Part shown: piece after piece, positions 1 through 41,771 of the stretch
Layout of the letters: each line of letters begins with the position of its first letter
Position numbering within the stretch: position 1 is the first letter of the stretch
DNA from: Sporopachydermia quercuum
Taxonomy: Eukaryota
Reading direction: 5' to 3'
Length of the DNA: 64,000 nt
Assembly: GCA_001599295.1 (NCBI GenBank)
Contig: BCGN01000001.1
Coordinates: forward strand, 2,108,001 to 2,172,000
Notes under the pieces: model-generated
What the model was told of the DNA's origin: nothing
What the model saw: only the letters and a program-made list of their open reading frames with translations
The model's database searches: none
Position numbers and translations under genes: made by a program

Positions 1-3000
1 TTGTCTTCAGTTTATCCAGTGTCTAAAGATACACCAGAAGGAACTAAATCATGGATCCCTCTCAGGTGCTTTGCTCGTGGGAAAGTTCTTCGATCATGGA
101 ACTGTCCTGAAAGTGCGAAGCAGAAACTAAATGACAGAAATTCGAACCATACAGCATTCAAATTAAATCCATTTATTGATATTACTCTTGGTGATGAAGC
201 CTACGTATTTGAAATCCATAAATCGGGAAAATGGGGAAGAGCTTACATATTCACATTACCTGATGAACTATCTTATTTACATGGAGCGATTTTGTCGGAG
301 AAAAATGTTGCAATCAACTCAAAAATAAATTCCGAGCTTGAGAAAGCGAAACTGGATAAGCTCTATCGAACAATTGATCACTCAAATGTGAAGGTTGGGG
401 TAATTCCATTAGGAAATCTTCATGTTTATGAACAAATTGAATTTGATGATAACACTTCAATGCCCAACAAAAAACACTCGAAAGAAAGTTTTATATCCCT
501 AGAAACTCTTCAGCCAGCATTAAGTGTTACCAACGGGAAAACAAAGCCACCCCTACCTTATATTCACCAAAGGAAGTATGATTTGACATCATCTACACCT
601 AGTGCAAATAAAAATATCCTTGATGATATTAGGCTTACTTTGCATAAATGGTATCGAAACTATTTTCTACGGTTCTATGTTGACAGCGACTATACTGTTT
701 TCACGAAGCTTGCTAATATTATCGACGAATTGAATAGCCTGTACATCAAATTAGAGTATGATTTGCTAACTAAGGGTGAATTGGTAATTGCTTATAACAG
801 GACAATTTATCTACTGAATGCTGGATCAAAACTGTTGAACTACAGTCATATTTCTTTCACATCAACTGCAGGATCAATTGCTGAACCAATTGTTGTTAGA
901 AGGCCAGCTATTGCATCCAATAACACAAACTCAGGCGAAGACACTGATAATTCGTTATTTGGTCGGTTATGCGAACAAGGCGTTGATTATCCTGTTGAAA
1001 CAGCTAAACAACAAGTCCAAATGTCTTTGGCGCAAAATTACCCTACTATAGCCAATACAGAAGAAATAGAAGAAAAAGCCGGTGGAATGATGCCAAGTGA
1101 TGTTCTAGTTGATTTTAAAGCTGTTGCTGGTGATGAGTCTCTAACCAATGGTAAATTCACTGCTTATTTATATCTTCGCAATAAATCAAGAAGGATCTCC
1201 CAATCTTTTGCTATTCATATTAGCAAACGTGATGATTTTTCTTTATCTCAATTATCTGCTGCTTTGTTTAAAAATGTTCCTGCTTCTGAATATCTTAAAA
1301 GTAAGATTTACTTAGTAGCTGTATTAACAGAAGAAGTAACTATTGAGAAATCTACTACTATGAACACTAATGGCATTACTAGTACTAATGAAGCACCTGT
1401 TGGGCATACTGCTAATAACTCAAAATATGAATCAAACAATAGTAGGAAATTTAGAAGAGGAATTGCTGGGGGTGCTACCGATATTTCCAGAATCTTCCGC
1501 ATGCACGAAGGTGTTGAGAATGAGTTTATAATTCGTCTTTATTCTTCTTTCTTTACTCATAAAGATCCTAGTATTGATAATAAAGGATGGGGTCACTTGA
1601 TCGATAGAATTATTACTGGTAATAAAAAGGGAGTTGCTACAAATCCTCAAGCAAGTCAAATCGTTGTTACAGTGAAAGAATTTCGTGGTAGAATTAACAA
1701 TAATGTTAAGAGTTCCAATAATAGTGGTAGTGAATCTACTATTATTAGTACCAAAAAATCCATAGTTGGGAACAACTCAATTGCTGTTATCCCAAGTTTA
1801 TTTTATTCTCCAACTCTTGAATCGTCTTTAGCTCTTGATTCGGATACTTCTTATGTTCATATAGGAGAAGTGAATATTTTACCTTACGGTCAGACTCAGC
1901 TTAGAATCAATAAAAATGATTTAATAACGGTTCAGTTGGCTTTCTCAAATACTCATTTACAATTTCGAAAAGCAGCAAATGATGTTCTCATGAAAAAATG
2001 GAACGCAATTTCAGTTGTTTCAGGAGAAATTATTGGTGAAACGATAAGAGTTCACGGTTTGAAAGATGTATTACTGAAGGAGAGAGAAATGGGTAAAACT
2101 GAAGAGAAACGGTCTCAAGATTTTATTATTGTTCGTGGATTCGTTAATGGTGAATTTATTGGGCAAGGGAAGCTATTATTACGTGATGGCGATAAGATTA
2201 ATGATACATTCAATAACAGTAATGGTGGTGAGATTGTTAGAATATTTGGACCTGGAGGATATTCTAACGAGCAAGGATTGTTTTCTGTTGAATTAAAAGT
2301 AGAGTATATTGGTAAACTGTTCAATATGGATGATAATATAAAGAACTTAACTCAATGGAGGAAGTTGTTCCATAACGGTAACGATACTACTGATCGTAGT
2401 ATTGATATTTCTAACAATCATGATGCCATCAATTTGCTAGTCAAATCATTACAGAAAACCAAATTCATAGAATTACAACAATTCCTTAGAAACTACTCAG
2501 AACTACTTATCTGTCAGCTAGAAATCATTTCAGAATTCTCTGAAATGAATCAGCCGGATGTTGCGTTCCAAGCATTTGCTGCCATGATTCATTTATTAGA
2601 TGTTGTTATTTCTCGTCAGCCATATTATATATATTTGATAGATGAGTTCCTGGATAAATATCGCGAGAAAATATGGGAGATTCGGAACTGTGGACAGTGG
2701 TTACTCCGAATAATGATTCGGGTGTATGAAAACGGAACATCCGAACGAGATCGGGTTTTGAGGGCTTTAAGTAAAGCTTCTCATTGTGTGTTAAAAATAG
2801 CAGTTGTGCCTGAATTGGAACTACAAGAGATTATTAATAGTGGGACCAATGATGATTCTAATATTGATAGCTTTTGGGAAGAATCATCGGAATTCTCGGA
2901 ATTATTTAAGGAATTGTGCCAAACAATCAGAAAGTTCTTGTCTTTTCCGAAAGATGATTTGATCTTGGATAAAACGTCGATAACTGAATCTTTGTTTTCC

Positions 3001-6000
3001 TGTATGATTGCAGTTGAAAGAATTGTTCCAAGATCTTTCATTACAACGGAAATGATAGAATTGGTTAATAGTATAGTTATAACATCTGGGCGTAATTCAA
3101 TTCCGGCTAATGTGACTGATACGATATCTATCCGATCGGGATCTGACGAAGACTTTCGCGCTCCAAGTAGAGAGAAAAAACTTCGGATAGCTCGGCTGCT
3201 ATTAATTCAGAAGCTCCCATCATGGGGAATTTATTCCGATGGAGAATCTCGGAAGATTCTATCTTCAGAGGTAGTTAGATGGGCCAATGAAATATTTTCC
3301 TCCCCACAGGGGTTGGAATTGGATGATGTTCGGATAATCTGCAGTTGTATTTCCCAGATGGTGAAACCTTATTTGGTATCTGAAAGCTCTTCCAAGATTT
3401 CTTCTGATATTTTGCCTGCTATCTCTTCCGCTTCGCTGTTGCCTATCATTGCTCAAACAATTACAAAACTCAACAGTTATTTATCATCGAAACCAAAGTT
3501 GAAAAGAAGAACATTCACTTATCTTTTCCCTACTAGTTTCCCATTTGCTCAAATTCCTTTTGCTTCTGCTGTGCCTTTTGAATTCTTCAGTGAAGCTATC
3601 ATTGAATTATCAACAGTATTAACAATCCTGTTACAGCTTTATAAGAAATATGGAATACAAGCAGATTTCACCCAAACTCAACTAAAAACCATCATTTCTG
3701 CTTGTAAAATGTTGCTAGATTGTAATTGGTATCCAAGAACTTGGTTATCATTATATGTTATACATGTCAGAGCAGTATGCAATGCTATGGAGCTTATAAA
3801 GCCATTAATGCTTGAATTGATTCCTAGCAGAGTAGAAGATTTTGAGAAGTTTGATAGTGATATCTGGTATGAGTATTTGGTGGTATTATTTGGCATTGCT
3901 TGTAATAGACAAGTGAGCTGCTATGAAGGAATGAATGTGATAGAAAGGATTGCTAGTTTTAAACTTGCTGGGAACCTTCGCGAAGAAGCTTCGGAAGTAC
4001 TCGGAGAGGTTTGGGAAAAACTGGGATGGGCAGCCTTAGAGGAGGATTTGCAATTGTTCGGAATTTCTCGATTCGGAGGATTTCAAGTTGAATTCATGGA
4101 AACTGAAACTGAAGAGAATGTTGGAAGCGGAAAGGATAAGGATAAAGATGATACCTTGGATGAATTCGGAAATTATAATAGAAATAGTGACATGCATGTT
4201 CTAGCACCAACGCATAACATTTTAAAATATGTACTTAATGGATGTCTCCAGAATTCGATCCCCTTGCAGGAAACATGCGTCGATATTTTATGGNCAACGA
4301 TTGTTTCGGAGTCCACCTTAAACGGAGATCTTGCCGAATTTCGGACATATTGTTTAGGAAAGATTGCGGAATTGTATGAGGAGCGAGATTATTCTTTATC
4401 CGAAGAAGTAGGAACTAGGTTCATCCGGTTCTTATCGGAAACAGTTATGATCCGGGTCGAGGAAAGGTCGGAACAGAAGTCAGAACAAAGATTACATGTA
4501 ATTTCAGAAGTCTTGGGAAACATCGGGAGTAAATCAGAATTAATTCATCCGCAAGCAAAGAACTTTGCTTTGAGTGTTGAGTCTCTNGTCATGTGTATTA
4601 GTGAATTCATATCTGTTATTCATGACATGCACTCAATTCCTCCAACAAATTCATATAAAGAAGATTTAATTTTCCATAAGCTGAATATGCTTGGTTTCTT
4701 CCTTTATAGCAATCAACCAGAGTTATTCGAGCAATACATGGCTGATCTNTTACTAGCTAACAAAGATAACTCTGATTATATTCAGGCTGGGCTTGTCCTA
4801 GAGTTATTGTCATCTATTTACGATTGGGACATGCAAACGATAGTTTCCGAGATTCGGATAGACTCGGCAACCACCGGAAAAACGATTATGTACTCCGATT
4901 CAAACGTTAATTCCAACGTTAATTCCAGTGTACTGTTCGCGAGACAAACCGCTTTCCAACGGAAAGAAACCTTGTATCTCAAAATGATTGAATATTTCTC
5001 TGCAAGCAAATTATACTCAAAGGCTATTGAATTATGCAAAGAATTAGCTGCTGTGTATGAAAAAATATCGTTTGATTTATTGAAAACAGCTGGAATGCAT
5101 ATGCAAATTTGCAAGCTTTTTAACAAGCTTGAGACAGATTCAACTGCTCCGGTTCCATCCTTTTTCCGAGTTTCATATTTCGGTAATGGATTCCCGAAAT
5201 GGCTTCAAAACAGGCAATTCATCTTTGAAGGTCTTCCGTTTGAGAAATTGAGTTCTATCTATGATAGATTACTCCGACTTCATCCTGGAGCTAATATTGT
5301 AAATACAGAAAAGGATGCTAAACCATTCGGAAGATATCTTCATGTATCCGTTGTTTCTCCGTTGATTGATGTTCTAAGCCCTGTTTATCTTATCAAAAAT
5401 ACTACGACATCGGCCCGAGATTATGCTCAACATCAAGATTTACGTTATTTCTCACTGTTGAGACCAATTCCCGGTAGCAAGTCTGTTCTAGATCTTCAAG
5501 TAGAAGAAACAGTGTATGAAACGTATTTCCCCTTTCCAGCTTTAATGAAAAGAGCTGAGATCAAATCAGTTAATACGGTGACTCGTTCACCATTGGAAAA
5601 TGCTATATATACTATGATTCAAAAGATCAACGAATTGACGGCGTTAGAAAGTGCTTTCAATGTTACATTTAAGAAGAATTCTGGTAGATTTGTTAGACAA
5701 GGGAATGAAAGCTTGGCATTAGAATTAAGCAGGAATCTGACAGGAACTATTGATGCACCAGTTAATGGTGGTGTTCAACAGTATAGGGAATTCTTTACTG
5801 ATGAACGATTAGTTGATAATGAGAAATCAAGGATTCAGCTGCAATATTTACTCAATACATTCAGGGGCCTTGCTACATCTTTGAGTAATTGTTTGGATAT
5901 TCATGAGAAGGTTATTACAGAGCAATTGAAACCGGCACATAATAGTTTAGTTGGCTTGTTTAAACAAAACTTTGCACAGGAGATTGCATGGATTAATGAA

Positions 6001-6468
6001 GAAAAGAGAAAATCCAGTAACACTAATCTGAATGGAATTGGTATTAGAAATAACGAAAGAGATTCTACTGACGCTGAGTCCATTAATTCATCATTCAGTA
6101 CAATGAGCATAAGTGAAAGAATCCCTTCTCGTGTTAATAGTAGTAGCAGTAGCATTAGAAGTATTAAAACTTTCGAGATAAGAGATAGAGATAGAGATAA
6201 TGTGAAAGGATTGAGTTCTCCAATAAGCCCTAGGAGTCCTCATACACATGTCAGAAGAGGTTCAAGCTTAAGTGGACCTAGTTTCAATGCTACCGACATT
6301 ATTGAAGCTATGTCATCAAACTCACAAGCTAAACGAAGTATGCAAAATGATCTTCAAGGAAGTGAAAATGGAAGTCCGAAAGGTCTCCGAAGAGGAAGCC
6401 AGATTGATAAGCAGAGGAAAACTAATATTAGTGTGAACAACAAGCATAAGTACTCTTCAATGATTTGA
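1..6468 (+). CDS. DCK1: DOCK-family (Dock180-like) Rac/Rho5 guanine nucleotide exchange factor, 5'-truncated (ATG lies just upstream of the window)
   Basis: Open frame of 2155 codons. It has the fungal DOCK N-terminus (SWIPLRCFARGKV), a C2/DHR1 region (FAIHISKRDDF...AALFKNV...KIYLVAVLTE...FRRGIAGGATDISRIF) and DHR2 motifs (FFRVSYFGNGFP...FIFEGLPFEK; LTGTIDAPVNGGVQQYREFF). Confidence 0.93.
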   Translation: MSSVYPVSKDTPEGTKSWIPLRCFARGKVLRSWNCPESAKQKLNDRNSNHTAFKLNPFIDITLGDEAYVFEIHKSGKWGRAYIFTLPDELSYLHGAILSEKNVAINSKINSELEKAKLDKLYRTIDHSNVKVGVIPLGNLHVYEQIEFDDNTSMPNKKHSKESFISLETLQPALSVTNGKTKPPLPYIHQRKYDLTSSTPSANKNILDDIRLTLHKWYRNYFLRFYVDSDYTVFTKLANIIDELNSLYIKLEYDLLTKGELVIAYNRTIYLLNAGSKLLNYSHISFTSTAGSIAEPIVVRRPAIASNNTNSGEDTDNSLFGRLCEQGVDYPVETAKQQVQMSLAQNYPTIANTEEIEEKAGGMMPSDVLVDFKAVAGDESLTNGKFTAYLYLRNKSRRISQSFAIHISKRDDFSLSQLSAALFKNVPASEYLKSKIYLVAVLTEEVTIEKSTTMNTNGITSTNEAPVGHTANNSKYESNNSRKFRRGIAGGATDISRIFRMHEGVENEFIIRLYSSFFTHKDPSIDNKGWGHLIDRIITGNKKGVATNPQASQIVVTVKEFRGRINNNVKSSNNSGSESTIISTKKSIVGNNSIAVIPSLFYSPTLESSLALDSDTSYVHIGEVNILPYGQTQLRINKNDLITVQLAFSNTHLQFRKAANDVLMKKWNAISVVSGEIIGETIRVHGLKDVLLKEREMGKTEEKRSQDFIIVRGFVNGEFIGQGKLLLRDGDKINDTFNNSNGGEIVRIFGPGGYSNEQGLFSVELKVEYIGKLFNMDDNIKNLTQWRKLFHNGNDTTDRSIDISNNHDAINLLVKSLQKTKFIELQQFLRNYSELLICQLEIISEFSEMNQPDVAFQAFAAMIHLLDVVISRQPYYIYLIDEFLDKYREKIWEIRNCGQWLLRIMIRVYENGTSERDRVLRALSKASHCVLKIAVVPELELQEIINSGTNDDSNIDSFWEESSEFSELFKELCQTIRKFLSFPKDDLILDKTSITESLFSCMIAVERIVPRSFITTEMIELVNSIVITSGRNSIPANVTDTISIRSGSDEDFRAPSREKKLRIARLLLIQKLPSWGIYSDGESRKILSSEVVRWANEIFSSPQGLELDDVRIICSCISQMVKPYLVSESSSKISSDILPAISSASLLPIIAQTITKLNSYLSSKPKLKRRTFTYLFPTSFPFAQIPFASAVPFEFFSEAIIELSTVLTILLQLYKKYGIQADFTQTQLKTIISACKMLLDCNWYPRTWLSLYVIHVRAVCNAMELIKPLMLELIPSRVEDFEKFDSDIWYEYLVVLFGIACNRQVSCYEGMNVIERIASFKLAGNLREEASEVLGEVWEKLGWAALEEDLQLFGISRFGGFQVEFMETETEENVGSGKDKDKDDTLDEFGNYNRNSDMHVLAPTHNILKYVLNGCLQNSIPLQETCVDILWXTIVSESTLNGDLAEFRTYCLGKIAELYEERDYSLSEEVGTRFIRFLSETVMIRVEERSEQKSEQRLHVISEVLGNIGSKSELIHPQAKNFALSVESXVMCISEFISVIHDMHSIPPTNSYKEDLIFHKLNMLGFFLYSNQPELFEQYMADXLLANKDNSDYIQAGLVLELLSSIYDWDMQTIVSEIRIDSATTGKTIMYSDSNVNSNVNSSVLFARQTAFQRKETLYLKMIEYFSASKLYSKAIELCKELAAVYEKISFDLLKTAGMHMQICKLFNKLETDSTAPVPSFFRVSYFGNGFPKWLQNRQFIFEGLPFEKLSSIYDRLLRLHPGANIVNTEKDAKPFGRYLHVSVVSPLIDVLSPVYLIKNTTTSARDYAQHQDLRYFSLLRPIPGSKSVLDLQVEETVYETYFPFPALMKRAEIKSVNTVTRSPLENAIYTMIQKINELTALESAFNVTFKKNSGRFVRQGNESLALELSRNLTGTIDAPVNGGVQQYREFFTDERLVDNEKSRIQLQYLLNTFRGLATSLSNCLDIHEKVITEQLKPAHNSLVGLFKQNFAQEIAWINEEKRKSSNTNLNGIGIRNNERDSTDAESINSSFSTMSISERIPSRVNSSSSSIRSIKTFEIRDRDRDNVKGLSSPISPRSPHTHVRRGSSLSGPSFNATDIIEAMSSNSQAKRSMQNDLQGSENGSPKGLRRGSQIDKQRKTNISVNNKHKYSSMI

Positions 6469-7326: not shown

Positions 7327-7942
7327 GCATGAAAGATGTAAAAAGGAGTTTCGCAGAAGAATCATTGAATAGGTGAATCAAGGATAAGATGTTCTACCTT
7401 TATAGTACATATACTCTAATCAAATAATCTATATTGGGAGAAGAGGATAGGATTTTGCGAAGTCTGAATAGTGGGTTAAGCAAAGATTATAAAACAGTTG
7501 GATCTGGCCAGTGGGTTGACATGTTATACAACTATTTCTTGATGAATGATTTGCTTGCTCCGTAATGTACTGTAAGAAAGCTTACCTGATTGTTCTTTCA
7601 ACTGTTGACTCTAATAGCATCATCTTACTAGTATATATTATTATCATTGACATTAACATGAATATTTATTGCACTATAGTTTGTTCATATTTGATGTATG
7701 ACTTGTTGGTATCATAAACCGATATATCTAATGCCAAATAATGAAGACTCCGGAGATAAGATTATATAAATTCTGAAACGCTAGACTTCCGACTTCCGAT
7801 ATTTGAGTATAGTTTCCGCTTTCTCTTTCCATTATCTCCATGTTTCCCTCATCTCTTCTATTTCATTTCCTTACTTATCACATCATCCTTTAATGTGCGA
7901 ATAACCTCTTTCTCCTTTCTTGCACTTTACATCTTCATTCAT

Positions 7943-9626: not shown

Positions 9627-11861
9627 CTATATCCAAATACTATCGTCATCACCATCCACATTAATCCATCTTCCATTTCTATCTATTACTTTAGCAGGAT
9701 TCAAATTNATACCATTAACACTTTTGATTTCATTATCATGACCATCATGACCATCTATCGATATGGAAAACAATTCATCGCTTCCTGACCCTCCAGAAAC
9801 TGGACTTTTATCTTCTGAACCCATATCTGCCAATGTCATACCGAATTCTGAGACATCCAAATCTCTATCCATTCCATTCTCCATTCCTCTTTCAAGATTA
9901 CTATCTTTATCTTTATCTCTAGAGAATAACGATTTCACTTCAACAGTACTGCTTCTCTTGCGTGCACCTAAGCCTTTGGTAGCTTCTAATGCTGGTGATT
10001 CTGGTACTATGAACTGCTGTAGTGAGCTGCTTGAATGCAGATGTGTATGAGAATGTGAATGCGAATGCGAATGGTGTAATTTATGGATTCCATGATTAGA
10101 ATCTGATCTTCTTAAAGCCAGTGAACTTATAGAACCAGGTGAGTATGATCTTGATAATGATGAGGACCTTCCAAGTTTACTTGACGATAAACCTGTAGAA
10201 TTTGAAGTGTTGTTATTGATATTTGTATTGATGCTAGTAGGATCAATAGTGGCATTGGGAGATACTTTGCTACCGCCTGATCCGTTCTCTAGAAATTTAT
10301 TACTGGAAATAGTCTCAGGGGTGAAAAATGTCTCGTTATAAACACTTTGAGGCTTAGTTAGATCTTCTGATGAAAGATTGTATAGACTGTTACTGAGAGT
10401 ATTGCTGGAATTTTTGTTGTTGCTATTGCTATTGTGATTATGCATACTATTGTTACCTGTTGATGACAACGAGATCGAATTAGATCTCAACCATTCAGAA
10501 TCACTGAATGGTGAAGTACCTTGAGCAGGTGAGTACAAGCCGTCGGATTCAAAATCTGACATTACGAGATTACCATTCATAGCTGCAGTTGCAATAGCAG
10601 CTCCTGATGTGAAAGGACCTAAATCTAAATCGTATGATGGCACGTCAACAATGGTCGAAGCTGAAAGGGTCTGAGACAAAGGAGATGAGAAACCTTCAGG
10701 ATGATGAGATGTGCCAATACAAGATTCGGATCTGTTTAGCATTAAGGGAGCGTTCAATTTTTCATTCACGGGTGAAATCGGAACTGTAGCTGGAGCTGGA
10801 TTTGAATTGGATTTGGCATTTGGGTTTGAATTCATGTCCATGCTGAGCTTCGGGTCGGATGATGAATAATTGCGCTTCATAGTAATTGGACCCGAATCAT
10901 AGTTTTTTCTTGGTCTGCCCGGTCGTCTTGCACGTTTTGGAGCAGTAGAATTAGGGTCATTTGGTTTGTTTGTCATTGCTACACTATTCGGACTGGTTTT
11001 ACTGTTGTTAGATATGTTTATAGAATTGCTTGAACTTGTACCCGGTGCAATATTCACAAGTGGTTNTACATCAGGAGCCAAAATACTGTTATTTTTTGAT
11101 AGTNCATTATTCTTCCTATTCTTCTCCATTGTTGTTGTAGTGTTGTTCTTTGACTTGTCCGTTATTTTACTCTCCCCAGAAGCGGTAATAGGTTTCCCTG
11201 TTACAAGGCTGTTGTTATTTTCCTCCCTAAAGCTGTTTGACGTTCCCAATACAGTACCAAGATCTTGTTGCTTCCCATATAGCGATAAAGAGCCAACAGA
11301 TCCTACAGGAATTAGATTGAGAGCCAAATCGGTCTCCTGTTTGACAGTAGAAAATATTTCATCGTCTGGACTAGCAATATCACCATTTCTAATATTATTT
11401 TTACCAGTTTCGCTATTACCATTCAGATCATCAACTAACGTATATTTTATTAATTCATCATTATCATGAATAGCTTCCAGAGCTTCTAGTTTTCTCAAAT
11501 CGTCTAAATCATCAAAATCGTATTCCTGCACTAATTTTTCAATTACTTTNTTGATACCAAACTTAGCATACACGTTTTTCAAAGGAGAGATGTCATGACC
11601 GTTGCAAGCCAGTTCTAACACTTTTTCAAATCCACGAGTGATCAAATCAAGCCTTGTTTCTATTAATTCAACATAACCAGCGGGATATACTTTATCCTTT
11701 GGTTTCTTCTTATCGGAGTATGTGCAGAGTTTATTATCCAGAAGACATTTACTGCAAGGTTTTCGACCATCACATTTTGTCTTTTTAATTCTACAAGAAT
11801 CGCAAGCTTTTCCTACTCTTCTTTTCCTGTTTTCTTGTTCATAAACTAGATGTTCAGACAT
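9627..11861 (-). CDS. FCR1: Zn(II)2Cys6 transcription factor, Fcr1-like, with a long Asn/Ser low-complexity tail
   Basis: RRVGKACDSCRIKKTKCDGRKPCSKCLLDNKLC...YPAGYVELIETRLDLITRGFEKV matches the Candida Fcr1 N-terminus as I recall it. Confidence 0.8.
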   Translation of the reverse strand: MSEHLVYEQENRKRRVGKACDSCRIKKTKCDGRKPCSKCLLDNKLCTYSDKKKPKDKVYPAGYVELIETRLDLITRGFEKVLELACNGHDISPLKNVYAKFGIXKVIEKLVQEYDFDDLDDLRKLEALEAIHDNDELIKYTLVDDLNGNSETGKNNIRNGDIASPDDEIFSTVKQETDLALNLIPVGSVGSLSLYGKQQDLGTVLGTSNSFREENNNSLVTGKPITASGESKITDKSKNNTTTTMEKNRKNNXLSKNNSILAPDVXPLVNIAPGTSSSNSINISNNSKTSPNSVAMTNKPNDPNSTAPKRARRPGRPRKNYDSGPITMKRNYSSSDPKLSMDMNSNPNAKSNSNPAPATVPISPVNEKLNAPLMLNRSESCIGTSHHPEGFSSPLSQTLSASTIVDVPSYDLDLGPFTSGAAIATAAMNGNLVMSDFESDGLYSPAQGTSPFSDSEWLRSNSISLSSTGNNSMHNHNSNSNNKNSSNTLSNSLYNLSSEDLTKPQSVYNETFFTPETISSNKFLENGSGGSKVSPNATIDPTSINTNINNNTSNSTGLSSSKLGRSSSLSRSYSPGSISSLALRRSDSNHGIHKLHHSHSHSHSHTHLHSSSSLQQFIVPESPALEATKGLGARKRSSTVEVKSLFSRDKDKDSNLERGMENGMDRDLDVSEFGMTLADMGSEDKSPVSGGSGSDELFSISIDGHDGHDNEIKSVNGXNLNPAKVIDRNGRWINVDGDDDSIWI

Positions 11862-22505: not shown

Positions 22506-23239
22506 GAGAGGATACCAGGGATTCGTCGTTTAATGGGAAAATATTTTAATTGTTCATACAAAAGATAATAATGAATATTTTTTAATATTACATTTAATGA
22601 AAGAGCTCAATATGATTCATCATAATTTATCAAAAGAAGAAAAATGTATACATAGAATAGTAATAAAAGTAAAGGAATTATTATTATAAGCAAGAATAGT
22701 ATAAAAGTGGAACTAAGATGAAGTTGTGGTTCAGCATAGTATTGAGCACCAAACCAAGTTACATTTTTAGAGATTTTCTAATTTCTAATTTCCTTTGTTT
22801 CTCTGATCAGACAAATACTGCTACAATGCAAGAACACCAAGTTATGAATGGGATATGAAGCAATTTCCATTGAACTCGAAGAATGATCTTTCAATAAGAA
22901 GAATATCCCAAGAACTGGTCTAGAACGCATGTTGTCAAGGTCTGTGTTGGGTGGGATACTTGTACAATTAATATTACACTCCAGTTCAACAGCAATTACT
23001 ACAATATTTTAGTAAGGAGAGGTTCCTAATGCATGGAAAGCTCATTTACGCCAATTTCCAAACCAGTCCCCTAAGATCCTCTAAGAAGAGAAAAGGAGAA
23101 AAACTTAAAATAGTTGTATGAAAGATGAAAAAATAATTAGTGAAAAAGTAACCGGTATTGACAATTCAACGGCAAACCAAGTATTTGATGGACCTTTTCC
23201 AACTATTCAGTTGGAATTACGAAAAATTTCTTAAAGGAC

Positions 23240-24900: not shown

Positions 24901-25486
24901 CAGCTTCTACAATATATATTCCATCAATCTATTCTCAGTTTAACTGTAACTGCAGCTCCGCTTTATTTCTTCAACCGTGACTATCCTAACAAACTTTAAT
25001 CACCAAGCATAAACCCAATTGGCACAATACTCTCTTCTTTTTTTTTTTTCTTTTTCTGTTTGAGCCTCTTTGAACTATTCTCTTTTTTTATTCTCTCTAG
25101 TTTGTTGGAGTGTTCATTCGTAATGTATTACTGATCAACTGGCAAACAGATGAAACAACATGTAGCGATCAGAATCTATTCTCCAGACAGTTATTTGGGT
25201 TCCGACGATCATCTTTTTCAGACCGTTGAAATGTTTCTAGAATAGGAAGCCAAGCACAACACAACAGAAGGAACGAAGTAAGGGAAGTTAACAGATAGAA
25301 CTGTCAGTAGGATATAGGGAAGAGGGGAACTAGTAGCTGGGACTAATAGCAGTTGCAGTGGGTCTCTCGCAACGTAAACCTCGGTTCTCTGTTGCTATTC
25401 CCCATTTTCCCCTTTGTCCCTTGAGCCAACAGAATGGCCTAGTCCCTTGAACTCATTCCAAACCTTTGCAACTGTATAAAAATAAA

Positions 25487-31240: not shown

Positions 31241-32453
31241 CAAGCTCTGGATGTCNGAAATTATATCCAATGATATTTAAGTTTAATGTTTGATCCTGAA
31301 ATGAGATGTAAGGTCTAAAACACTCTCTTTTCCGAATTCTCCGACTTCGGATTTGCAGCAGGGAACTTTCCACTTAATTATTGTCTTATATTGCAACTTT
31401 TTACTTATGATCCGAATACCGAGATACGTTGAAATGGTAAGCTAGCAAAGGTACTACCGATATGGCTCAGCCTAGTTGTGCTTATTAACCAGATAACAGG
31501 TATCGCCAGTCAATTGAGTAAAGTATTTGATTGAAATGTATGTTTTCAAATTGGACTTTATTTGGAGAAAAAGTCTGTTGACATTTTTTCATCGATACAT
31601 ACTAAAAATTGGCACAATGTAGAGACATATAGCCCGTATTCTTGGCTCGCTCTAGTAAAGATAAACATCCAACTCATCGTGTAACCGAATGGATACGAAG
31701 TACGTACGAAAGGACCTGNCTTTCCTGTTACACCGCTTTTGCATCAAATCATACAACCGCACTCTTTGACATACCAAGTCTAATTACCCAAGCCTATCTA
31801 TCTTATTCCTTTTAGTGTCTCTATATATTCATCCCACAGTCTATCTGCAACCAGCAATCTATCCAGCTCCGTCTTTCCGAACCGTTTCCGATTATCTCAT
31901 CAATAACTCCCTTCCTCAGCTTTAAGGTTTGCCAAAACTCTATCTTTCGTTTATTGAGGAGCCACAAAAATTTATACTGTATGCAAGGAGGTGGTCATTG
32001 NACTTTCAGNTTTCAGCCTTCTTCTAGCTTCTTATTATGGTTACTATATCGTTTATATAGTTAATAAAAATCAATAGTTGAAGAAAGCTCAATTAGATGA
32101 AAACTTAGAGNCTTCTGAAGCGAGCGTAGTTGGTGATCTGGGCAGATTGTATATAGTTATTCTGAGGTCTAAGGTCTAGTTATTCTTGATCGGTTCTCAG
32201 TTTTCAGGTACTTGATAGGCCAGCAATAGGACACCAATCGCTGTATATACTTGTATTTATCAAATAATTTTACTCTGAAAGGACAAATGGGAATAAATTT
32301 GTCGCTGAAAGAAGCTTCTGCTTAGACAATCAACATAAATTATAGCATCAATAAGCTAGGATATCAATANCGTTGTTGCATCTTCCAAGTAACATGCAAC
32401 CATAAACCGCATAATTTTGATCCAATAGCTTAATCACATAAAGTATCAATATA

Positions 32454-34990: not shown

Positions 34991-37900
34991 ATGGATCTTC
35001 TAAGTAGCACTATGTGTGAGGTCAATGGTTTCTCAGAATCCATTGATATAAAAGATAAGCTTTCCACTAACTACGAAAACAATAACATGAGGTTATCAAG
35101 GAAAAGTGAGAATAGCCTTATAGGTGATAATATGAATCAGGAAGACGATGAGACATTGTCTAAATATGTTGATACTGAAAAACAGTATAAACTGGTGAAA
35201 ATGACTGTGAAGGATCCTGAAATTAGCAATAATAAAAATTCAACTTCTAATAGTAAAAAAGAATCATTATCGTATTTAATAAGCCAGATAAGCAAAATTA
35301 AAACCTACTGTAAAGCTTCCTTTGCTGATCAAGAAAAGGCTATCAGATTGCTGTCTCTACATTCTAAAGAAACAAACATTAAACTGTCAGAGATACCAGA
35401 ATTAATAAACAATAGTAAGAACAAGAGCGAGCGCGAAGATAATGTCAATAATTCCAATAATATGAATAATTCGAATAACGCAAACAATGCTTTAAATTGC
35501 GAGGAACTAGTGAACAAAGTGAAAGCTCAACAGCAGGAAGCGTTTGATAAAGAACGAGAGACTTTATATGAGCTAATTGGCCAATGAAAAGAAGACATTG
35601 CAGCTTTACAACGATCTAGTAGTAATCAACAGAGTAGTAATCGGAAAAAAGTTTCCAGTAGCAATAGCATTAGCAATGAAGACAGCGATAATGACAATAG
35701 CGAGAGTATTGTTACGACTACTAATAATATTAATGCATAGATAATTCAAAAGTCGGTGGAGAAGGCATTGAAAAACTACTATACCAAACAGGAAATTGAA
35801 TCCTTTTTACGAGACTCGGTTATCGCAAACAGTAATCGGACACCTATGCCTAATGGGGAAACAACTTCGGCTTCCAATCCTATTTCTCTTGAGTCGATTA
35901 AGCCGATTGTGGGGAAGTTATTGCCGAATCAAGAAATGAGTTCAAAACCATCATTACTTTTATCCAATAGAAACTTAAAGCAATTTCCAGCGATTTCCGC
36001 TCTTTCGAGCTAAGAATGCTCACTTTCGAAACAGCACCATCATGTGTTGGTTCTTCCACCTATAGCGGTAACAGTTCCGCTTCTGATGGGCTCGGAACCT
36101 CCTCGGTCATGGAACTTGAAATGGAACTCCGGCCTATTCTTCTTGACACGTTTCCTACAGTAACCGAGTTTCAACAATTCAACGACGAAGTTCGCCAGTA
36201 TTTAAACTTCAATAATGACAGCAATAGCAATAACCAGGCACTCTTTACTGAGCAAATCAAGGCTGTTGCTGATAAGATAGACGCTATGCAGGCCTAATTC
36301 CAAAGCTTGAAAAAGCGGGTGCAATCAACTTCCACCTCCGCTCCTGGTTCCGCTCATACTTCCGTTTCTGCTTCCGACTCGACCAAAGAAGCTTCAACTT
36401 CACTGTTCGCACTCCGAGAACAGATTATCCTGCTGGTGCGCAGAGAAGCCGACCTCCGCGCGGAGCTGAATGACCTGAGACAACAATCCGTCGATATCCG
36501 ACAAATCTCAACCCTCCAAGCGAAAATCCAAACAATCCAAGACTCAATTCTACCAAAAAACAACTGCATCAAATAAAANCCCAACTTGCTGCTCTTCGGG
36601 CTGAAACTTCTTAGAATGGAGATTCCTCGACCCAAAAACCTGACTTGCAGCTAGCAAAAGAACTCCAAGGCATTAAATCACAGATAAATCACAGATAAAT
36701 TCATTAAATCAGCTTCATAATTCATCTCAAGCAGGTCTTGATGGATTGGCAAGAGAGCTGAACACTCTTGCTAAAGAGAGCAAGAAGATGAAAGCTGATT
36801 TGACTGATAAGTATGAAGCGTTGGCTAAGGAATTCAACTATATTAACTCACTTCGGGGAAAGGTGATTGGTACTATGATTAACAAGGTGCATACTGTGTA
36901 TGATCGGTTGTTTGAAGAAGATNGTACGCCAAAGGAGGTTCTGGGGGCTATTGGGGGCACCTTCGGAGTCACGGGTGCAGGCGCAGCCGGGGGAAAGGAG
37001 CCACTGGTGGAAGGCGGATTGCGAATGTGATACAGCAGTCCCAACAAGGGAGAAGAGCGGCCCAACCACGTTTTTTCAAGCCTGAGCCACCAGCTGTTCC
37101 TCTTTCAACGTCATTGAAACGCAGCGACCGGGGAAACCCGATTCTGGAGAAGGTGCAAGAGAGAAAAATCGGCGCGGAGGAAGATTTGTCCAGCGGAAAT
37201 GGATATAAGCTCTTTCTTCCTGGATCTCTACCACATCCCACCGGGTTTCCTGCGCCACATAGTAACAGTACCAATTCAGTAAACTCCGGGGGCACCGGAG
37301 TCACAGGGGAGAGAAACACAGATCAATCAAAAGTACCAGTTACATGATGGCGGAAGCTCTATATCTTCAAGAGGAGAAGATAAGCCGTGGAATTCGGATG
37401 ATTCAGATTCAGATTCAGATTCAGAAGCGGAAGCGGAACGGAAACAATCTCCCATTGGGAAATCCCCTAAGAAACTATCTAAAATAGTCGAACTTTCGGA
37501 CATGGAAGAACATTCGGAACATTCGGAAACGGAAGAAAACTTGGACGAGAAATCAGAAGCAGATTTGAAATCGGAATCAGAATCGGAAGAAGATGAAGAC
37601 ACTAGCTCTAATTTCAAAATCACATCGGAGAAAAAGCGGAAATGGTCGGTAAACAACCGAGTACAATCCTCCAAAAGTGTTTCAATTCCAGAACCTGATT
37701 CCGATNCCGATCCCGATTCTTAACCTGAACCCAGAAGCACCATTAAACCTGAAAGAACCGGTAATATCTATGATCCGGTGTCTTTCAATTCCGGTTCTGT
37801 CTCAGAACCTAAACTCAAATCCTCACTTAACTCCAAATCTAAGAACGCCTTCTTATCTTCTCCGATATCAAAATCTACCCAAGCAAAGCCTATTACTTCC

Positions 37901-39458: not shown

Positions 39459-39501
39459 ATATCATTATACAATAAACTCATTCATTAGCTTTTCTATGTT
39501 C

Positions 39502-41493
39502 TTAAATCCTATTATCACTATCTTTATCATTATCACTATCATCACTGAACTCATCGTCTATAAAAACACTTCGATTCAATGAATCAGTCGATACACTTTC
39601 ACTCAAATCATCCATAGCGTAAGTTCCTGNTGTTCCTCTTGAAGCAGTTGAAGTTGCAGATAACTTATTCCGAGCACTCAGTTTCAATGGCCTTTGAGGA
39701 ACAGCTTCTTCATCAACAGGCACGTGAGAGTATCTGGCGCTAAAAGTGTCGCTATTGATGTAATCAACATCGGGGTCCATTAATGATTTGAACCACGCGA
39801 TGATTTTGTTTGGTCTTGAAGAGCGTTTCGTTCGGAAACAGCAGAAGTAGACAAAGAACAACATGAGCAGAATTACCAGTAAGCAGCCGGCAATGAATAG
39901 TTTTTGGGGAACATCGGAAGAGATTTCGGAGGTTTCAGATGTTTCAGATGAGCTCTCAGAAGTAGAATTACCACTATTTCCGTCAGTTAAGATTTTTTCC
40001 GAATCATTGTAGTCTTCTTTCTGTTCGGGGTCGTCGAAGACTACCGCAGTTTCATTTAACCCTATAAACCGTTCTACCATTCCTTTACTTCTGCCTGAAT
40101 AATCAAACGGAACCATATGAGATGCATCCGCTACTAGAACGTAAGTCAAATTCCGTTCTTCCCGCCAGAATCCCGCTTCTGTATANTTGTAGTCATCTTC
40201 AATATCAGAAACCCACCATCGGAGTTTTTCGGATTCGTTAGAAAACCCGGTTGCTCCGTTCCAAGTTAAGTACTTAATTAGTTCTTCGTTACCATAATGA
40301 TTACATATTATATCTTTATCTCCGTTGAACATTAAGATAGGCAATTGCTCTAACAAATCGGGCAATAAATAAACGGCTGGTTCGGAATGATGTGCGGTGA
40401 AAGAGGAGGAAACTTTACCAGAACACTCGGACCATCCGCCTTGAAACTCGTGATTAAGGTTCAATGCGAGCTGAACCTTCTTTTGCCCTAAATACGGTGT
40501 CACGTGGGTCAAATCTGGCGGCCAATTCATCCCGCACGACGGATAAGAATCATTTAACCGAATATCGTACATATTCAAGCACGATTCTTCCGGAGGAGCA
40601 TGTTTCTTGAGCGAATATCGAAGAACTAAATCTAGGATGTTATCGCATTCCGGAAACGATACTCTTTGCTGTCTATGAGTTTCATCATCGCGGGTAGATT
40701 CAATGTTTTTTTCACATTTCTTTTGCTGTTCCATAAGTGAAGCTGCATAATCGGCATTAGGGTCCAATATGTTGTTATCATATGCAAATGGTAGATAGGA
40801 TAAGGATTGTCTGCTTGGATCGGTCCACCCGTTTCCGATAATTAACCCGGATAAGTTTATTTCCAGAGTTTCAGAACTCTTCGAATTGCGTTTTAGAATA
40901 GCATCAGCAAAGTACGGAATGTATTGTCCTGCATATGATTCGCCTCCAAGATAAAGCTCATATGATTGATCCTCAGGAAACACTTCGTAGTACTTATCTA
41001 AAAACAAGATAAAATCCTGCACCGCTTGGTCCAACTCTTTCAAATAAGAGTNGGAATCTGTGTAGCTAAAACCAGTGCCTGCCGGTTGGTCAACAAACAG
41101 CAAATGTGCGTTTTCGTGCCATGACCCAATATTGGCTCTAAGCTTCTTGTCACTCAGGGTACGGAAGGGTCCCAGTTCCATCATAGCACCATCAAGAGAA
41201 GAACATCCGGGTCCACCATTAAGCCATAGAATCAGCTTGTCTTTTGGCTCAGTATTGGATTTATTGACCCGCCAGAAGAATAGATTAGTATGGTTATTGG
41301 TATGAAGAGTCAAATGACCCGCATGCATTACAGGGATCAAACTTGGGTCAATATTTTCCGTTCCAGGAAGCGACTTCACTAGAAATTTCTCCTTTGAGAT
41401 CGGACCCGTCTTATCCGCCGTCGGATAAGCTGAAGTAGCCGAGATGGCTATAATCAAGGTAGCTATTTGCCGAAATAACACTGATAACAGCAT
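39502..41493 (-). CDS. KEX1: pheromone-processing serine carboxypeptidase (S10 family, type I membrane protein)
   Basis: Signal peptide, WLNGGPGCSSLDG, GESYAGQYIP, YDIRLNDSYPSCGMNWPPDL, NGDKDIICN and ASHMVPFD, then a TM helix and an acidic tail. Confidence 0.95.
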   Translation of the reverse strand: MLLSVLFRQIATLIIAISATSAYPTADKTGPISKEKFLVKSLPGTENIDPSLIPVMHAGHLTLHTNNHTNLFFWRVNKSNTEPKDKLILWLNGGPGCSSLDGAMMELGPFRTLSDKKLRANIGSWHENAHLLFVDQPAGTGFSYTDSXSYLKELDQAVQDFILFLDKYYEVFPEDQSYELYLGGESYAGQYIPYFADAILKRNSKSSETLEINLSGLIIGNGWTDPSRQSLSYLPFAYDNNILDPNADYAASLMEQQKKCEKNIESTRDDETHRQQRVSFPECDNILDLVLRYSLKKHAPPEESCLNMYDIRLNDSYPSCGMNWPPDLTHVTPYLGQKKVQLALNLNHEFQGGWSECSGKVSSSFTAHHSEPAVYLLPDLLEQLPILMFNGDKDIICNHYGNEELIKYLTWNGATGFSNESEKLRWWVSDIEDDYXYTEAGFWREERNLTYVLVADASHMVPFDYSGRSKGMVERFIGLNETAVVFDDPEQKEDYNDSEKILTDGNSGNSTSESSSETSETSEISSDVPQKLFIAGCLLVILLMLFFVYFCCFRTKRSSRPNKIIAWFKSLMDPDVDYINSDTFSARYSHVPVDEEAVPQRPLKLSARNKLSATSTASRGTXGTYAMDDLSESVSTDSLNRSVFIDDEFSDDSDNDKDSDNRI

Positions 41494-41763
41494 TGTGGAC
41501 AGGTTAGGGGGTTGGACCGAGTCGAGAACAAGAGGATGTATTTATGTGGGAAGGAAATGCTCGAGAACGGAAAAAATATCTAATTGGGATAAATTCGCCA
41601 CGGAAAACAAAATAAGGTTGAAAACGGAGCTTGATAAAAAGAGTAGAAATAATCCGGCCGATATACCGTAAAACAGCAGAAGAGAAGACAGATGAGAATT
41701 GATCCGAGGATATACAACAAATAGAGAGAAATAAATGATGATGTAATCTAAATGGGTTCAACT

Positions 41764-41771
41764 GTCACGTG
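41764..41771. promoter_or_regulatory. GTCACGTG E-box in the KEX1/SEF1 divergent promoter
   Basis: Exact motif 271 bp from the KEX1 ATG. Confidence 0.45.

What the first reader, a model, noticed from the sequence alone, without database searches (positions are those of the whole stretch)
2640..5480. CGGA/TCCG islands alternating with CpG deserts inside one ORF, recurring across the window
Seen: within DCK1, 3490-3978 (about 490 bp) has no CpG. The next 580 bp (3979-4560) have about 28 CpG by hand count, about 18 in CGG/CCG and about 12 in CGGA, many at synonymous positions such as TCG-GAA. Similar islands occur in FCR1 (10720-11000), KEX1, SEF1 (45720-45950), the C2H2 gene, both pseudogenes, and intergenic DNA (7745-7820, 31330-31460, 31865-31895, 42120-42300). 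At 37390-37600 TCAGA and TCGGA alternate in equivalent repeat positions, suggesting CAG/CGG interconversion. Inference: because the pattern ignores gene boundaries and gene orientation, codon bias does not explain it. It could be a regional, context-specific mutation or repair process (modification-linked CCG loss, or CCG gain through biased conversion) or a dispersed binding-site system. I know of no such system described in budding yeasts.
Basis: partly seen in the sequence, partly recalled or inferred. Interest (0 to 1): 0.7.

Follow-up and report, generated by a model that had tools for sequence, protein, structure and literature searches.

The report
CGG/CCG-rich patches in yeast DNA
In this budding-yeast chromosome piece the three-letter words CGG and CCG are packed into patches of a few hundred to a few thousand bases that ignore genes, reading frame and strand, which points to a local, neighbour-dependent bias in how the DNA mutates or is repaired, not to codon choice.

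Summary
Positions 3490-3978 have no CpG. Positions 3979-4560 have 28 CpG, 18 of them in CGG/CCG, and 12 CGGA.

The signal is narrower than "CpG islands and deserts". CGG/CCG is the most clustered trinucleotide in the window. CpGs outside CGG/CCG are spread almost at random.

A two-state model places 440 of 815 CGG/CCG in ten segments covering 17% of the window. The clustering survives synonymous-codon shuffles, shuffles that keep GC3, and removal of local GC. It occurs in all three frames and on both strands. It extends into non-coding flanks and a decayed gene.

At synonymous sites, classed only by their flanks, G/C replaces A/T eightfold more often between a 5' C and a 3' G. There is no change between A/T neighbours. 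That excludes plain codon bias, a methylation-free-island model and a uniform GC-biased drift.

There is no extended motif and no preferred spacing, so a binding-site system is unlikely.

The best reading (about 45%) is a regional, non-adaptive, neighbour-dependent mutation, repair or conversion bias. It shows most strongly in the CCG/CGG context, which is hypermutable in other yeasts. Direction and mechanism could not be determined because no outgroup, variants or whole genome were available.

The parts
2701..3300 (.). CGG/CCG-rich segment inside the DCK1-like ORF (17 CGG/CCG, 12 CGGA/TCCG, GC 0.38)
   Evidence: Two-state Poisson model
3488..3978 (.). CpG-free stretch inside the DCK1-like ORF, the longest in the window (491 bases)
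   Evidence: Random placement P=0.0055. Codon shuffles P<0.001 and P=0.003
3979..4560 (.). The model calls its core, 4301-4600, as rich
4801..5500 (.). CGG/CCG-rich segment in the conserved C-terminal half of the DCK1-like ORF (22 CGG/CCG)
   Evidence: Protein windows 1561-1680 are among the best conserved yet hold 7 CGG/CCG each
460..6468 (+). DOCK-family (DCK1-like) ORF that hosts the finding
   Evidence: Pfam DOCK_N, C2_DCK_4th and DHR-2. Homologues are 26-29% identical by local alignment and 29-32% in the multiple alignment
10701..11200 (.). Rich segment in the Zn-cluster (FCR1-like) gene, which lies on the minus strand
   Evidence: Clustering within this gene alone is not significant
35801..37800 (.). 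Two rich segments (35801-36500 and 36901-37800; 68 CGG/CCG) in a decayed gene with in-frame stops and frame shifts. Includes the TCAGA/TCGGA repeat at 37390-37600
39801..41700 (.). Rich segment covering most of KEX1 (minus strand, 39502-41493) and running 200 bases into its upstream DNA
   Evidence: The non-coding flank 41494-42118 lies in the high class
45701..46100 (.). Rich segment in the SEF1-like Zn-cluster gene
   Evidence: CGG/CCG dispersion 3.11 against 1.10 (P<0.001) and 2.07 (P=0.022)
51301..56600 (.). Two rich segments (51301-55200 and 55601-56600; 222 CGG/CCG). They start about 560 bases upstream of the 1594-residue Fungal_trans ORF and cover it. 35% of its Arg codons are CGG
31869..31890 (.). 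Tight intergenic array of four direct CCG words about 560 bases upstream of the 32454 ORF. Five similar mini-clusters lie at 12896, 25587, 27394, 51034 and 58483
   Evidence: 6 observed against 0.92 expected

Best explanation
The patches are domains of 0.3 to 3.9 kb in which a non-adaptive, neighbour-dependent nucleotide bias operates. At a site with a C on its 5' side and a G on its 3' side, G or C is found instead of A or T far more often than elsewhere, so CAG/CTG is exchanged for CGG/CCG. Sites next to one G or C are shifted less. Sites between A/T are not shifted.

I read this as the fine-scale, context-resolved form of the GC-rich domains already known in budding yeasts. A regional shift in the balance of weak-to-strong and strong-to-weak changes would cause it. 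That shift could come from biased gene conversion around recombination-prone spots or from regional differences in mutation or repair. It shows first and most strongly at CCG/CGG because that is the fastest-mutating context in yeasts that lack methylation.

Shown: the statistical anatomy, namely word specificity, independence of frame, strand and gene borders, presence in non-coding DNA, and neighbour dependence.

Inferred: neutrality, the link to recombination or repair, and the direction of change.
For: 1. Word specificity. CGG/CCG has an excess pair density of 0.84 within 500 bases, against 0.27-0.36 for the other all-G/C trinucleotides and 0.11 or less for the remaining 28. With the two GC-rich blocks masked the values are 0.25 against 0.10 or less.

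2. Non-circular classes (each site classed only by CGG/CCG density 150-1000 bases away). The ratio CSG:CWG is 197:187 in the high class and 106:358 in the low class, a ratio of ratios of 3.55 (z 8.4). All other centre substitutions give 1.05-2.28. GC-corrected, the most enriched words are CGGA/TCCG (174 against 76, 3.3-fold, z 8.6) and CGGAA/TTCCG (4.7-fold, z 7.0).

3. Synonymous third positions, standard code, same classes:
- Between A/T neighbours the odds ratio is 0.98 (326/827 against 502/1259 G/C).
- One G/C neighbour, not CpG-forming: 1.58.
- One G/C neighbour, CpG-forming: 2.39.
- Two G/C neighbours other than C_G: 2.43.
- C_G: 8.06 (139/269 against 29/251, z 9.0). This is similar for CCG against CTG (7.2) and CGG against CAG (9.2).

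4. Non-coding DNA. C_G odds ratio 2.42 (z 5.4) against 1.18-1.43 for the other five context groups. Without the decayed gene it is 2.27 (z 3.6) against 0.77-1.23.

5. Not codon-bound. TCGGA/TCCGA occur in all three frames of DCK1 (12, 10 and 8 copies by frame). There is no consistent strand preference.

6. Not amino-acid composition or relaxed protein constraint. Within DCK1 the Gly+Ala+Arg+Pro share is 0.178 in rich segments and 0.184 elsewhere. CGG/CCG density against identity to 11 homologues gives rho -0.20, P=0.26, over 33 windows.

7. Within DCK1 alone (flanks 40-350 bases), the C_G odds ratio is 3.59 (20/56 against 6/47, z 2.5).

8. Literature.
- Gene clusters with different non-adaptive nucleotide biases are described in Saccharomycotina, with the cause left open between gene conversion and other forces (PMC9246145, passages read).
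- In S. cerevisiae mutation-accumulation lines C:G is most mutable in CCG and TCG, and in S. pombe in CCG and GCG, without methylation. This is as summarised in PMC4704713 (passages read). The original S. cerevisiae paper was not read.
Against: - No direction. No outgroup or polymorphism could be obtained, so gain of CGG in patches and loss elsewhere are not distinguished.
- A uniform GC-biased conversion at equilibrium predicts the same odds ratio in every context. The observed range is 0.98 to 8.06. The model therefore needs unequal context rates and limited age, or a truly context-specific process.
- In the high class CGG/CCG is over-represented (1.59 of the mononucleotide expectation and 1.58 of the first-order Markov expectation), not merely undepleted.
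- Arg CGG replaces AGG through a transversion: 28 CGG and 4 AGG of 95 Arg codons in the high class, against 6 and 37 of 194 in the low class. This looks like a preference for the word, not for one mutation type.
- The high class is dominated by two genes. Dropping the Fungal_trans gene leaves a C_G odds ratio of 4.91 (z 5.5). Dropping KEX1 as well leaves 2.23 (8/35 against 29/241, z 1.8) (table 12).
- Within-gene tests are not significant in the SEF1-like gene (1.44), KEX1 (1.38), the Fungal_trans gene (0.83) or the FCR1-like gene (4.05, z 1.8).
- Only 64 kb were available.
Confidence: 0.45

Rival explanations
1. There is no single process. The pattern is the sum of ordinary causes: weakly expressed, GC-richer genes with little selection for preferred codons; Gly/Ser/Pro/Arg/Glu-rich low-complexity protein segments that offer many C|G junctions; and true regulatory CGG sites in promoters.
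For: - More than half of all CGG/CCG in rich segments lie in three loci: KEX1, the Fungal_trans gene and the decayed gene.
- The highly expressed PGK1 has 15 CpG and no NCG codons.
- Given each gene's own codon usage, CGG/CCG counts exceed the shuffle mean by only 12-18%: DCK1 84 against 75, KEX1 62 against 53, Fungal_trans 202 against 171.
- Dropping the two richest genes weakens the synonymous-site signal to z 1.8.
- Promoter mini-clusters exist.
Against: - The same C_G-specific shift is present in non-coding flanks (odds ratio 2.27-2.42, other contexts 0.77-1.43).
- The effect depends equally on the next codon's first base and on the codon's own second base. Codon preference alone does not predict that.
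- Words occur in all frames and both strands.
- Sub-genic clustering in DCK1 and the SEF1-like gene survives shuffles that keep amino acids and GC3.
- Amino-acid make-up does not differ between rich and other parts of DCK1.
Confidence: 0.2
2. CGG(A) words are selected, or driven, as binding sites for an abundant CGG-reading protein. That protein could be a zinc-cluster factor or a chromatin protein that marks domains.
For: - The word is favoured over AGG, CAG and CGA alike and is over-represented in the patches (1.59).
- Tight intergenic arrays exist, such as four direct CCG at 31869-31890 and CCG-N3-CGG pairs near 42200-42290.
- That CGG triplets are the half-sites of fungal zinc-cluster factors is recalled, not tested here.
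Against: - Flanking positions carry 0.11 bit or less; A after CGG is only 1.62-fold enriched.
- There is no preferred spacing or orientation among neighbouring triplets, apart from the overlapping CCGG.
- The 6-mers fit their Markov expectation (0.9-1.34).
- About one word per 25 bases across kilobases of ORF is not how known site arrays look.
Confidence: 0.08
3. The rich segments are DNA of different origin, either introgressed or transferred from a genome with another composition, and have not yet been worn down to the host's word usage.
For: - Some borders are sharp, for example 0 CpG up to 3978 followed by 28 in the next 582 bases.
- Segments include flanking non-coding DNA.
- In the high class the share of G/C at synonymous sites is nearly flat across neighbour contexts (0.33-0.52), unlike the rest of the window (0.12-0.40).
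Against: - Synonymous sites between A/T neighbours do not differ at all (odds ratio 0.98). A foreign composition should show there too.
- KEX1 is equally distant (36-49% identity) from all fungal groups found, with no close donor.
- Several sub-kilobase segments inside one conserved ORF would need many separate events.
Confidence: 0.07
4. Cytosine methylation erodes CpG in most of the DNA, and the patches are unmethylated islands.
For: - CpG is at 0.72 of expectation overall.
- In 500-base windows, high CpG tends to go with low TG+CA. This is read by eye from the table; no coefficient was computed.
- CAG/CTG is 1.23 of expectation in the low class and 1.11 in the high class.
Against: - CpGs outside CGG/CCG are spread at random: dispersion 1.11, lag-1 autocorrelation -0.05.
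- ACG/CGT is 0.57, 0.59 and 0.58 of expectation in the three classes.
- In the low class CCG/CGG is no more depleted than the other CpG words (0.67 against 0.51-0.68).
- Two reviews state that Saccharomycotina have lost the cytosine methyltransferases (PMC13297926 and PMC7862722, passages read).
- This genome could not be searched.
Confidence: 0.04

Closest known systems
Physically clustered gene sets with different non-adaptive nucleotide bias (GC3-rich and GC3-poor) in Saccharomycotina genomes (Cope and Shah 2022, PMC9246145; passages read)
   Same: The composition shift is regional, crosses genes, is not tied to expression-linked codon selection, and has an unresolved cause (gene conversion, nucleotide pools or deamination feedback are discussed).
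   Different: That work describes gene-level GC3 over windows of about 20 genes. Here the scale is 0.3-3.9 kb, inside single ORFs. The shift is absent at sites between A/T neighbours and eightfold at C_G. One trinucleotide pair carries the clustering.
Methylation-independent hypermutability of C:G in CCG/TCG (S. cerevisiae) and CCG/GCG (S. pombe) in mutation-accumulation lines (as summarised in PMC4704713; passages read)
   Same: The same trinucleotide, CCG/CGG, is singled out in yeasts without methylation.
   Different: Those are genome-wide rates with no regional structure reported in the passages read. Here the word is over-represented in patches, and direction is unknown.
Vertebrate CpG islands
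   Same: Kilobase-scale patches rich in CpG lie in a CpG-depleted background.
   Different: Only CpGs in CGG/CCG cluster and other CpG contexts do not. The patches lie mostly inside ORFs, not at promoters. No methylation system is expected in this subphylum.
Word-frequency shaping by sequence-specific mismatch correction, such as very-short-patch repair acting on CTWGG/CCWGG in E. coli (recalled; no call)
   Same: A repair activity that restores one word from its transition product enriches that word and depletes its neighbour. This is the kind of mechanism that could exchange CWG for CSG.
   Different: It is bacterial, tied to a methylase, and genome-wide instead of patchy. No homologue was sought because no genome is held.
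CGG half-sites of fungal Zn2Cys6 transcription factors (recalled; no call)
   Same: The triplet is the same, and small promoter arrays occur in this window.
   Different: The bulk of the signal has no spacing rule and almost no flank information, and it lies in coding DNA.

Membership tests
Methylation-type CpG islands and deserts | All CpG contexts are spared in islands and eroded outside | tested here: not met
   CpG outside CGG/CCG: dispersion 1.11, lag-1 autocorrelation -0.05, pair density about 0. ACG/CGT is 0.57, 0.59 and 0.58 of expectation across classes.
Methylation-type CpG islands and deserts | The decay products TpG/CpA are in excess where CpG is low | tested here: inconclusive
   In the 500-base windows, high CpG tends to go with low TG+CA (read by eye; no coefficient computed). 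CAG/CTG is 1.23 (low class) against 1.11 (high class). The effect is small and is also expected under any CWG/CSG exchange.
Methylation-type CpG islands and deserts | A cytosine-5 DNA methyltransferase and 5-methylcytosine are present in the organism | not testable with these tools
   No whole genome is held. The runs are kept as contigs only. Reviews say the subphylum lacks these enzymes.
GC-rich domains from GC-biased gene conversion or a regional mutation bias | The GC rise is regional and crosses gene borders into non-coding DNA | tested here: met
   In non-coding DNA of the high class, G/C is raised in five of six context groups with z 2.8-5.6 (odds ratios 1.34-2.42). G_C is not significant (1.18, z 0.8). 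The rich segments have GC 0.38-0.48.
GC-rich domains from GC-biased gene conversion or a regional mutation bias | The same weak-to-strong shift appears at all neutral sites whatever their neighbours | tested here: not met
   Synonymous sites: odds ratio 0.98 between A/T neighbours against 8.06 at C_G.
GC-rich domains from GC-biased gene conversion or a regional mutation bias | Coincidence with recombination hot spots, and an excess of weak-to-strong derived alleles | not testable with these tools
   There is no map. Three runs gave no single-letter differences over the 20 kb laid; the only difference was one 11-base indel.
Codon-usage bias (translational selection) | The effect is locked to reading frame and coding strand and confined to coding DNA | tested here: not met
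   All three frames and both orientations are used. The effect is present in non-coding DNA.
Codon-usage bias (translational selection) | The effect is reproduced by shuffling synonymous codons within the gene | tested here: not met
   DCK1 and the SEF1-like gene exceed 1000 shuffles for clustering, with P from below 0.001 to 0.022. The FCR1-like gene does not (P 0.09 and 0.23).
Arrays of zinc-cluster (CGG) binding sites | Neighbouring triplets have a preferred spacing and orientation | tested here: not met
   The spacing tables for gaps of 0-20 bases are flat in all four orientation classes. Only the overlapping CCGG (91) stands out.
Arrays of zinc-cluster (CGG) binding sites | Sequence information extends beyond the triplet | tested here: not met
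   0.11 bit or less per flanking position over 440 sites in rich segments.
Arrays of zinc-cluster (CGG) binding sites | The sites lie in promoters | tested here: inconclusive
   Six tight mini-clusters lie outside the rich segments, against 0.92 expected. Some sit upstream of ORFs. The large segments lie in ORFs.

The most novel reading that the evidence does not exclude
An isolated budding-yeast lineage carries a domain-wise process that reads the symmetric trinucleotide CNG. This could be a context-specific mismatch correction or conversion bias, or a modification of CNG sites. It turns CAG/CTG into CGG/CCG (or protects the latter) in patches of chromatin and leaves all other contexts, including other CpGs, nearly untouched. 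Such a process would be a new kind of molecular drive on word content in fungi.
Probability: 0.12. Interest if true: 0.75.

Novelty: new variant of a known kind. Interest (0 to 1): 0.42.

Why it matters
Regional differences in base composition in yeasts are known, but their cause is disputed. The candidates are biased gene conversion, replication-linked nucleotide supply and context-dependent damage.

This window shows that, at least here, the difference is not a general GC drift. It is nil at sites between A/T and eightfold at C_G, and it is visible in non-coding DNA. That gives a sharp, testable signature. Any proposed mechanism must explain why CWG/CSG is the most responsive context and why other CpGs do not cluster.

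If the signature holds genome-wide, CGG/CCG density would be a cheap, sequence-only marker of these domains. It could be laid against recombination, replication-timing or repair maps.

It also warns that codon-usage models assuming one mutation bias per genome, or per gene, will misread such genes.

Tried and rejected
- Whole genome of the window: not held, so there are no genome-wide statistics and no search for methyltransferase or glycosylase genes.
- Public runs: three runs of one organism hold the stretch. Laid on 32011-52010 they matched without a single other letter and did not resolve the N positions. The only difference was an 11-base indel at 36674, so there is no polymorphism spectrum and no polarisation.
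- Metagenome scan with the DCK1-like protein: 79 pattern matches, none a relative. The second scan, which is allowed after an empty first one, was not used.
- Periodicity of CpG positions, as for linker-targeted methylation: none seen up to 3 kb.
- Polarity of CGGA against TCCG along the window: none.
- Relaxed protein constraint: rho -0.20, P=0.26. Lineage-specific insertions: rho 0.18 with gap fraction.
- tRNA genes and Rfam families that might explain patches: 0 and 0.
- Pfam scan of 44 of the 67 stop-to-stop frames of 70 or more residues outside the annotated ORFs. The 23 dropped were overlapping frames on the other strand or in another frame. Only an acyl-carrier protein and an LRR (SDS22-like) gene were added.
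- UV-dimer deamination as the source. The paper read stresses TCG as the fast context (PMC12887450, passages). In this window TCG/CGA is barely clustered (0.11) and CCG is (0.84), so this idea was given little weight.
- Classes defined by a site's own CpG or CGG density are circular for CpG words. They were replaced by flank-defined classes.
- Shuffles and site tests first run with table 12 were repeated with the standard code after CTG proved to be leucine. The results did not change in substance.
- Literature. Four searches gave no paper describing CGG/CCG-specific patches in a budding yeast. The library lacks most subscription journals, so this is not proof that none exists.

Full report
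**What the window is.** It has 64,000 bases, GC 0.369, CpG at 0.72 of expectation, and 70 isolated N.

ORFs with Pfam support are:
- a Zn-cluster factor (9627-11861, minus strand),
- a UVB_sens protein,
- an RGS protein,
- a bZIP protein,
- a thioesterase-like protein,
- KEX1 (39502-41493, minus strand),
- a Zn-cluster/Fungal_trans factor (43251-46604),
- a lipase,
- a 1594-residue Fungal_trans protein (51860-56644),
- PGK1,
- a methyltransferase,
- an acyl-carrier protein and an LRR protein.

PGK1 is 74-80% identical to nearly every fungal (mostly budding-yeast) entry listed. One 62% row is a nematode entry. The DOCK protein is only 26-29% identical to its best relatives. KEX1 is 36-49% identical to yeasts and filamentous ascomycetes alike. 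The organism is therefore an isolated budding-yeast lineage.

CTG codons sit at invariant leucine columns: five fully invariant columns of the DOCK protein (a sixth has 9 of 11 Leu), 36 of 36 homologues at PGK1 residue 88, and 41 of 46 at KEX1 residue 132. The standard code applies, and the Candida gene names are analogies.

**The observation.** Positions 3490-3978 have no CpG. Positions 3979-4560 have 28 CpG, 15 CGG, 5 CCG, 12 CGGA and 4 TCCG. 18 of the 28 CpG are in CGG/CCG, and their cytosines fall at all three codon positions (6, 9 and 13). The 491-base CpG-free gap is the longest in the window. Random placement gives P=0.0055.

Against 1000 synonymous shuffles of the ORF, the clustering of CpG, the length of the gap, the clustering of CGG/CCG and the numbers of CGGA/TCCG and TCGGA/TCCGA all exceed the controls. 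This holds with or without keeping G/C against A/T at each third position, with P from below 0.001 to 0.013. CpGs outside CGG/CCG are not clustered (P=0.09 and 0.48).

The SEF1-like gene shows the same CGG/CCG clustering (3.11 against 1.10 and 2.07). The FCR1-like gene does not reach significance.

**What the signal really is.** Over the whole window CCG/CGG stands at 1.02 of its mononucleotide expectation. The other CpG trinucleotides stand at 0.59-0.78.

CGG/CCG is by far the most clustered of the 32 strand-symmetric trinucleotides. Its excess pair density within 500 bases is 0.84. The values are 0.36 for CCC/GGG, 0.27 for GCC/GGC and CGC/GCG, and 0.11 or less for the rest. With the two GC-rich blocks masked it is 0.25 against 0.10 or less.

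CpGs outside CGG/CCG show no excess at any distance. In 250-base blocks they are nearly Poisson (dispersion 1.11, lag-1 autocorrelation -0.05). CGG/CCG has dispersion 4.06 and autocorrelation 0.66, and 0.34 after each block's own GC is removed (P<0.0005).

The most clustered 5-mers with 40 or more copies are CCGGA, CGGAA, an AT word, poly-A, then TCGGA.

A two-state Poisson model (0.68 against 3.86 words per 100 bases; log-likelihood -919 against -1137) calls ten rich segments of 300-3900 bases. These cover 17% of the window and hold 440 of 815 CGG/CCG.

The finding is therefore better described as CGG/CCG patches than as CpG islands and deserts.

**Controls that avoid circularity.** I classed every site only by the CGG/CCG density 150-1000 bases away on either side.

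- CSG:CWG is 197:187 in the top fifth and 106:358 in the bottom two fifths, a ratio of ratios of 3.55 (z 8.4). The other centre substitutions give 1.05-2.28.
- CCG/CGG is 1.59, 0.82 and 0.67 of expectation in the three classes. ACG/CGT is flat at 0.57-0.59.
- Corrected for GC, the most enriched words are CGGA/TCCG (3.3-fold, z 8.6), CCGA/TCGG (2.6-fold) and CGGAA/TTCCG (4.7-fold, z 7.0).

At synonymous third positions under the standard code (9198 sites), the odds ratios for G/C in the high against the low class are:

| Context of the site | Odds ratio |
|---|---|
| Between A/T neighbours | 0.98 |
| One G/C neighbour, not CpG-forming | 1.58 |
| One G/C neighbour, CpG-forming | 2.39 |
| Two G/C neighbours other than C_G | 2.43 |
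| C_G (139/269 against 29/251) | 8.06 |

Arg codons shift from AGG to CGG: 4 and 28 of 95 in the high class, against 37 and 6 of 194 in the low class.

In non-coding DNA the C_G odds ratio is 2.42 (z 5.4) against 1.18-1.43 for the other groups. Without the decayed gene it is 2.27 against 0.77-1.23.

**Limits of these tests.** The high class is dominated by KEX1 and the Fungal_trans gene. Without the latter the C_G odds ratio is 4.91 (z 5.5). Without both it is 2.23 (z 1.8).

With shorter flanks (40-350 bases), DCK1 alone gives 3.59 (z 2.5), and the eleven genes other than those two give 2.75 (z 3.7). The SEF1-like gene, KEX1 and the Fungal_trans gene taken singly are not significant.

**What it is not.**
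- Not codon bias. The words occur in all frames and both orientations, the effect is present in non-coding DNA, and shuffles do not reproduce it.
- Not amino-acid composition or relaxed protein constraint. Gly+Ala+Arg+Pro is 0.178 against 0.184 inside DCK1. Correlation with conservation is rho -0.20, P=0.26, over 33 windows, and two of the best conserved windows are rich.
- Not local GC.
- Not methylation-free islands. Other CpG contexts neither cluster nor recover, and reviews report that the subphylum has lost the cytosine methyltransferases (passages read).
- Not a uniform GC-biased drift. Sites between A/T neighbours do not move.
- Not an obvious binding-site system. There is 0.11 bit or less per flanking position (A after CGG is 1.62-fold enriched) and no preferred spacing or orientation.
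- Not recognisably foreign DNA. KEX1 has no close donor, and the A/T-flanked sites match the rest of the window.

**Most likely mechanism.** The anatomy is short context, strand symmetry, indifference to genes, and presence in a decayed gene with in-frame stops and frame shifts. That anatomy is what a mutation, repair or conversion bias leaves behind.

Budding yeasts are known to hold physically clustered genes with different non-adaptive nucleotide biases, whose cause is open (PMC9246145). CCG is the most mutable context in two yeasts without methylation (PMC4704713).

A regional weak-to-strong pressure of limited age would move the fastest-evolving context first. In non-coding DNA the numbers fit this roughly: G/C between A/T neighbours goes from 0.37 to 0.44, and at C_G from 0.26 to 0.45. 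This is my own reasoning, not a fitted model.

Three observations speak against a simple version:
- the complete lack of movement at A/T-flanked synonymous sites,
- over-representation of CGG/CCG beyond the Markov expectation (1.58),
- the AGG-to-CGG exchange through a transversion.

These keep open a truly CNG-specific process. I put the regional neighbour-dependent bias at about 45% and a composite of ordinary causes at 20%. Word-level selection or binding is at 8%, foreign origin at 7% and methylation at 4%. The remaining 16% or so is left for causes not listed.

**What could not be done.** No genome, outgroup or variant data were available. The direction of change, the genome-wide extent and any link to recombination or chromatin are therefore untested. 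Four literature searches found no description of CGG/CCG-specific patches in a budding yeast, but the library is incomplete.

**Verdict.** The feature is a new, context-resolved variant of a known kind of regional compositional heterogeneity. It is of moderate interest until it is shown genome-wide and polarised.

Noticed in passing
window-wide; DCK1-like residues 119, 913, 1188, 1408, 1760; PGK1 residue 88; KEX1 residue 132: CTG codons align with invariant leucine in homologues, so the organism uses the standard code and is not a CTG-clade (Candida-type) yeast. Its proteins are about equally distant from all budding-yeast groups found.
   Followed up: yes
34991-38200, + strand: A decayed gene. 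An intact 198-residue N-terminal frame is followed by about 2.6 kb of frame fragments separated by in-frame TGA, TAG and TAA stops and by frame shifts. There is no Pfam match. Its AT-rich head (34991-35500) has no CGG/CCG, while the remainder is among the richest DNA in the window.
   Followed up: partly
36674-36700: An 11-base unit (TAAATCACAGA, 2.5 copies) differs in copy number between public runs: two runs of one sample lack 11 bases that the third run and the window have. This was the only difference seen over the 20 kb laid.
   Followed up: no
39350-39458: A perfect 51-base tandem duplication (2.1 copies, 100% match) lies just beyond the 3' end of KEX1. The contigs of all three runs break there.
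   Followed up: no
22506-29042, and generally: Gene density is low for a yeast. The fifteen supported ORFs cover about 46% of the window. The 6.5 kb from 22.5 to 29 kb gave no Pfam match in any of the long frames scanned (14 of the 16 listed there).
   Followed up: partly
45982-56319: The isolated N positions (70 in all, about one per 900 bases) are absent from this 10-kb stretch. Only 3 lie in the first 6.5 kb. If they mark heterozygous sites, this would be a tract without heterozygosity. What the N stand for could not be found out.
   Followed up: no
42200-42290; 31332-31360; 7795-7815: Promoter-like DNA holds paired words such as TCCGATTCGG, TCCGACTCGG and TCCGACTTCGGA, and direct TTCCG repeats. 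They look like zinc-cluster factor sites and may be a separate, regulatory phenomenon from the large patches.
   Followed up: partly
45831-45860 and 46560-46582; 37555-37588: Short pieces of other contigs of the same genome match these low-complexity coding stretches at 90% likeness or more, so similar Ser/Glu/Asn-rich repeats exist elsewhere in the genome.
   Followed up: no
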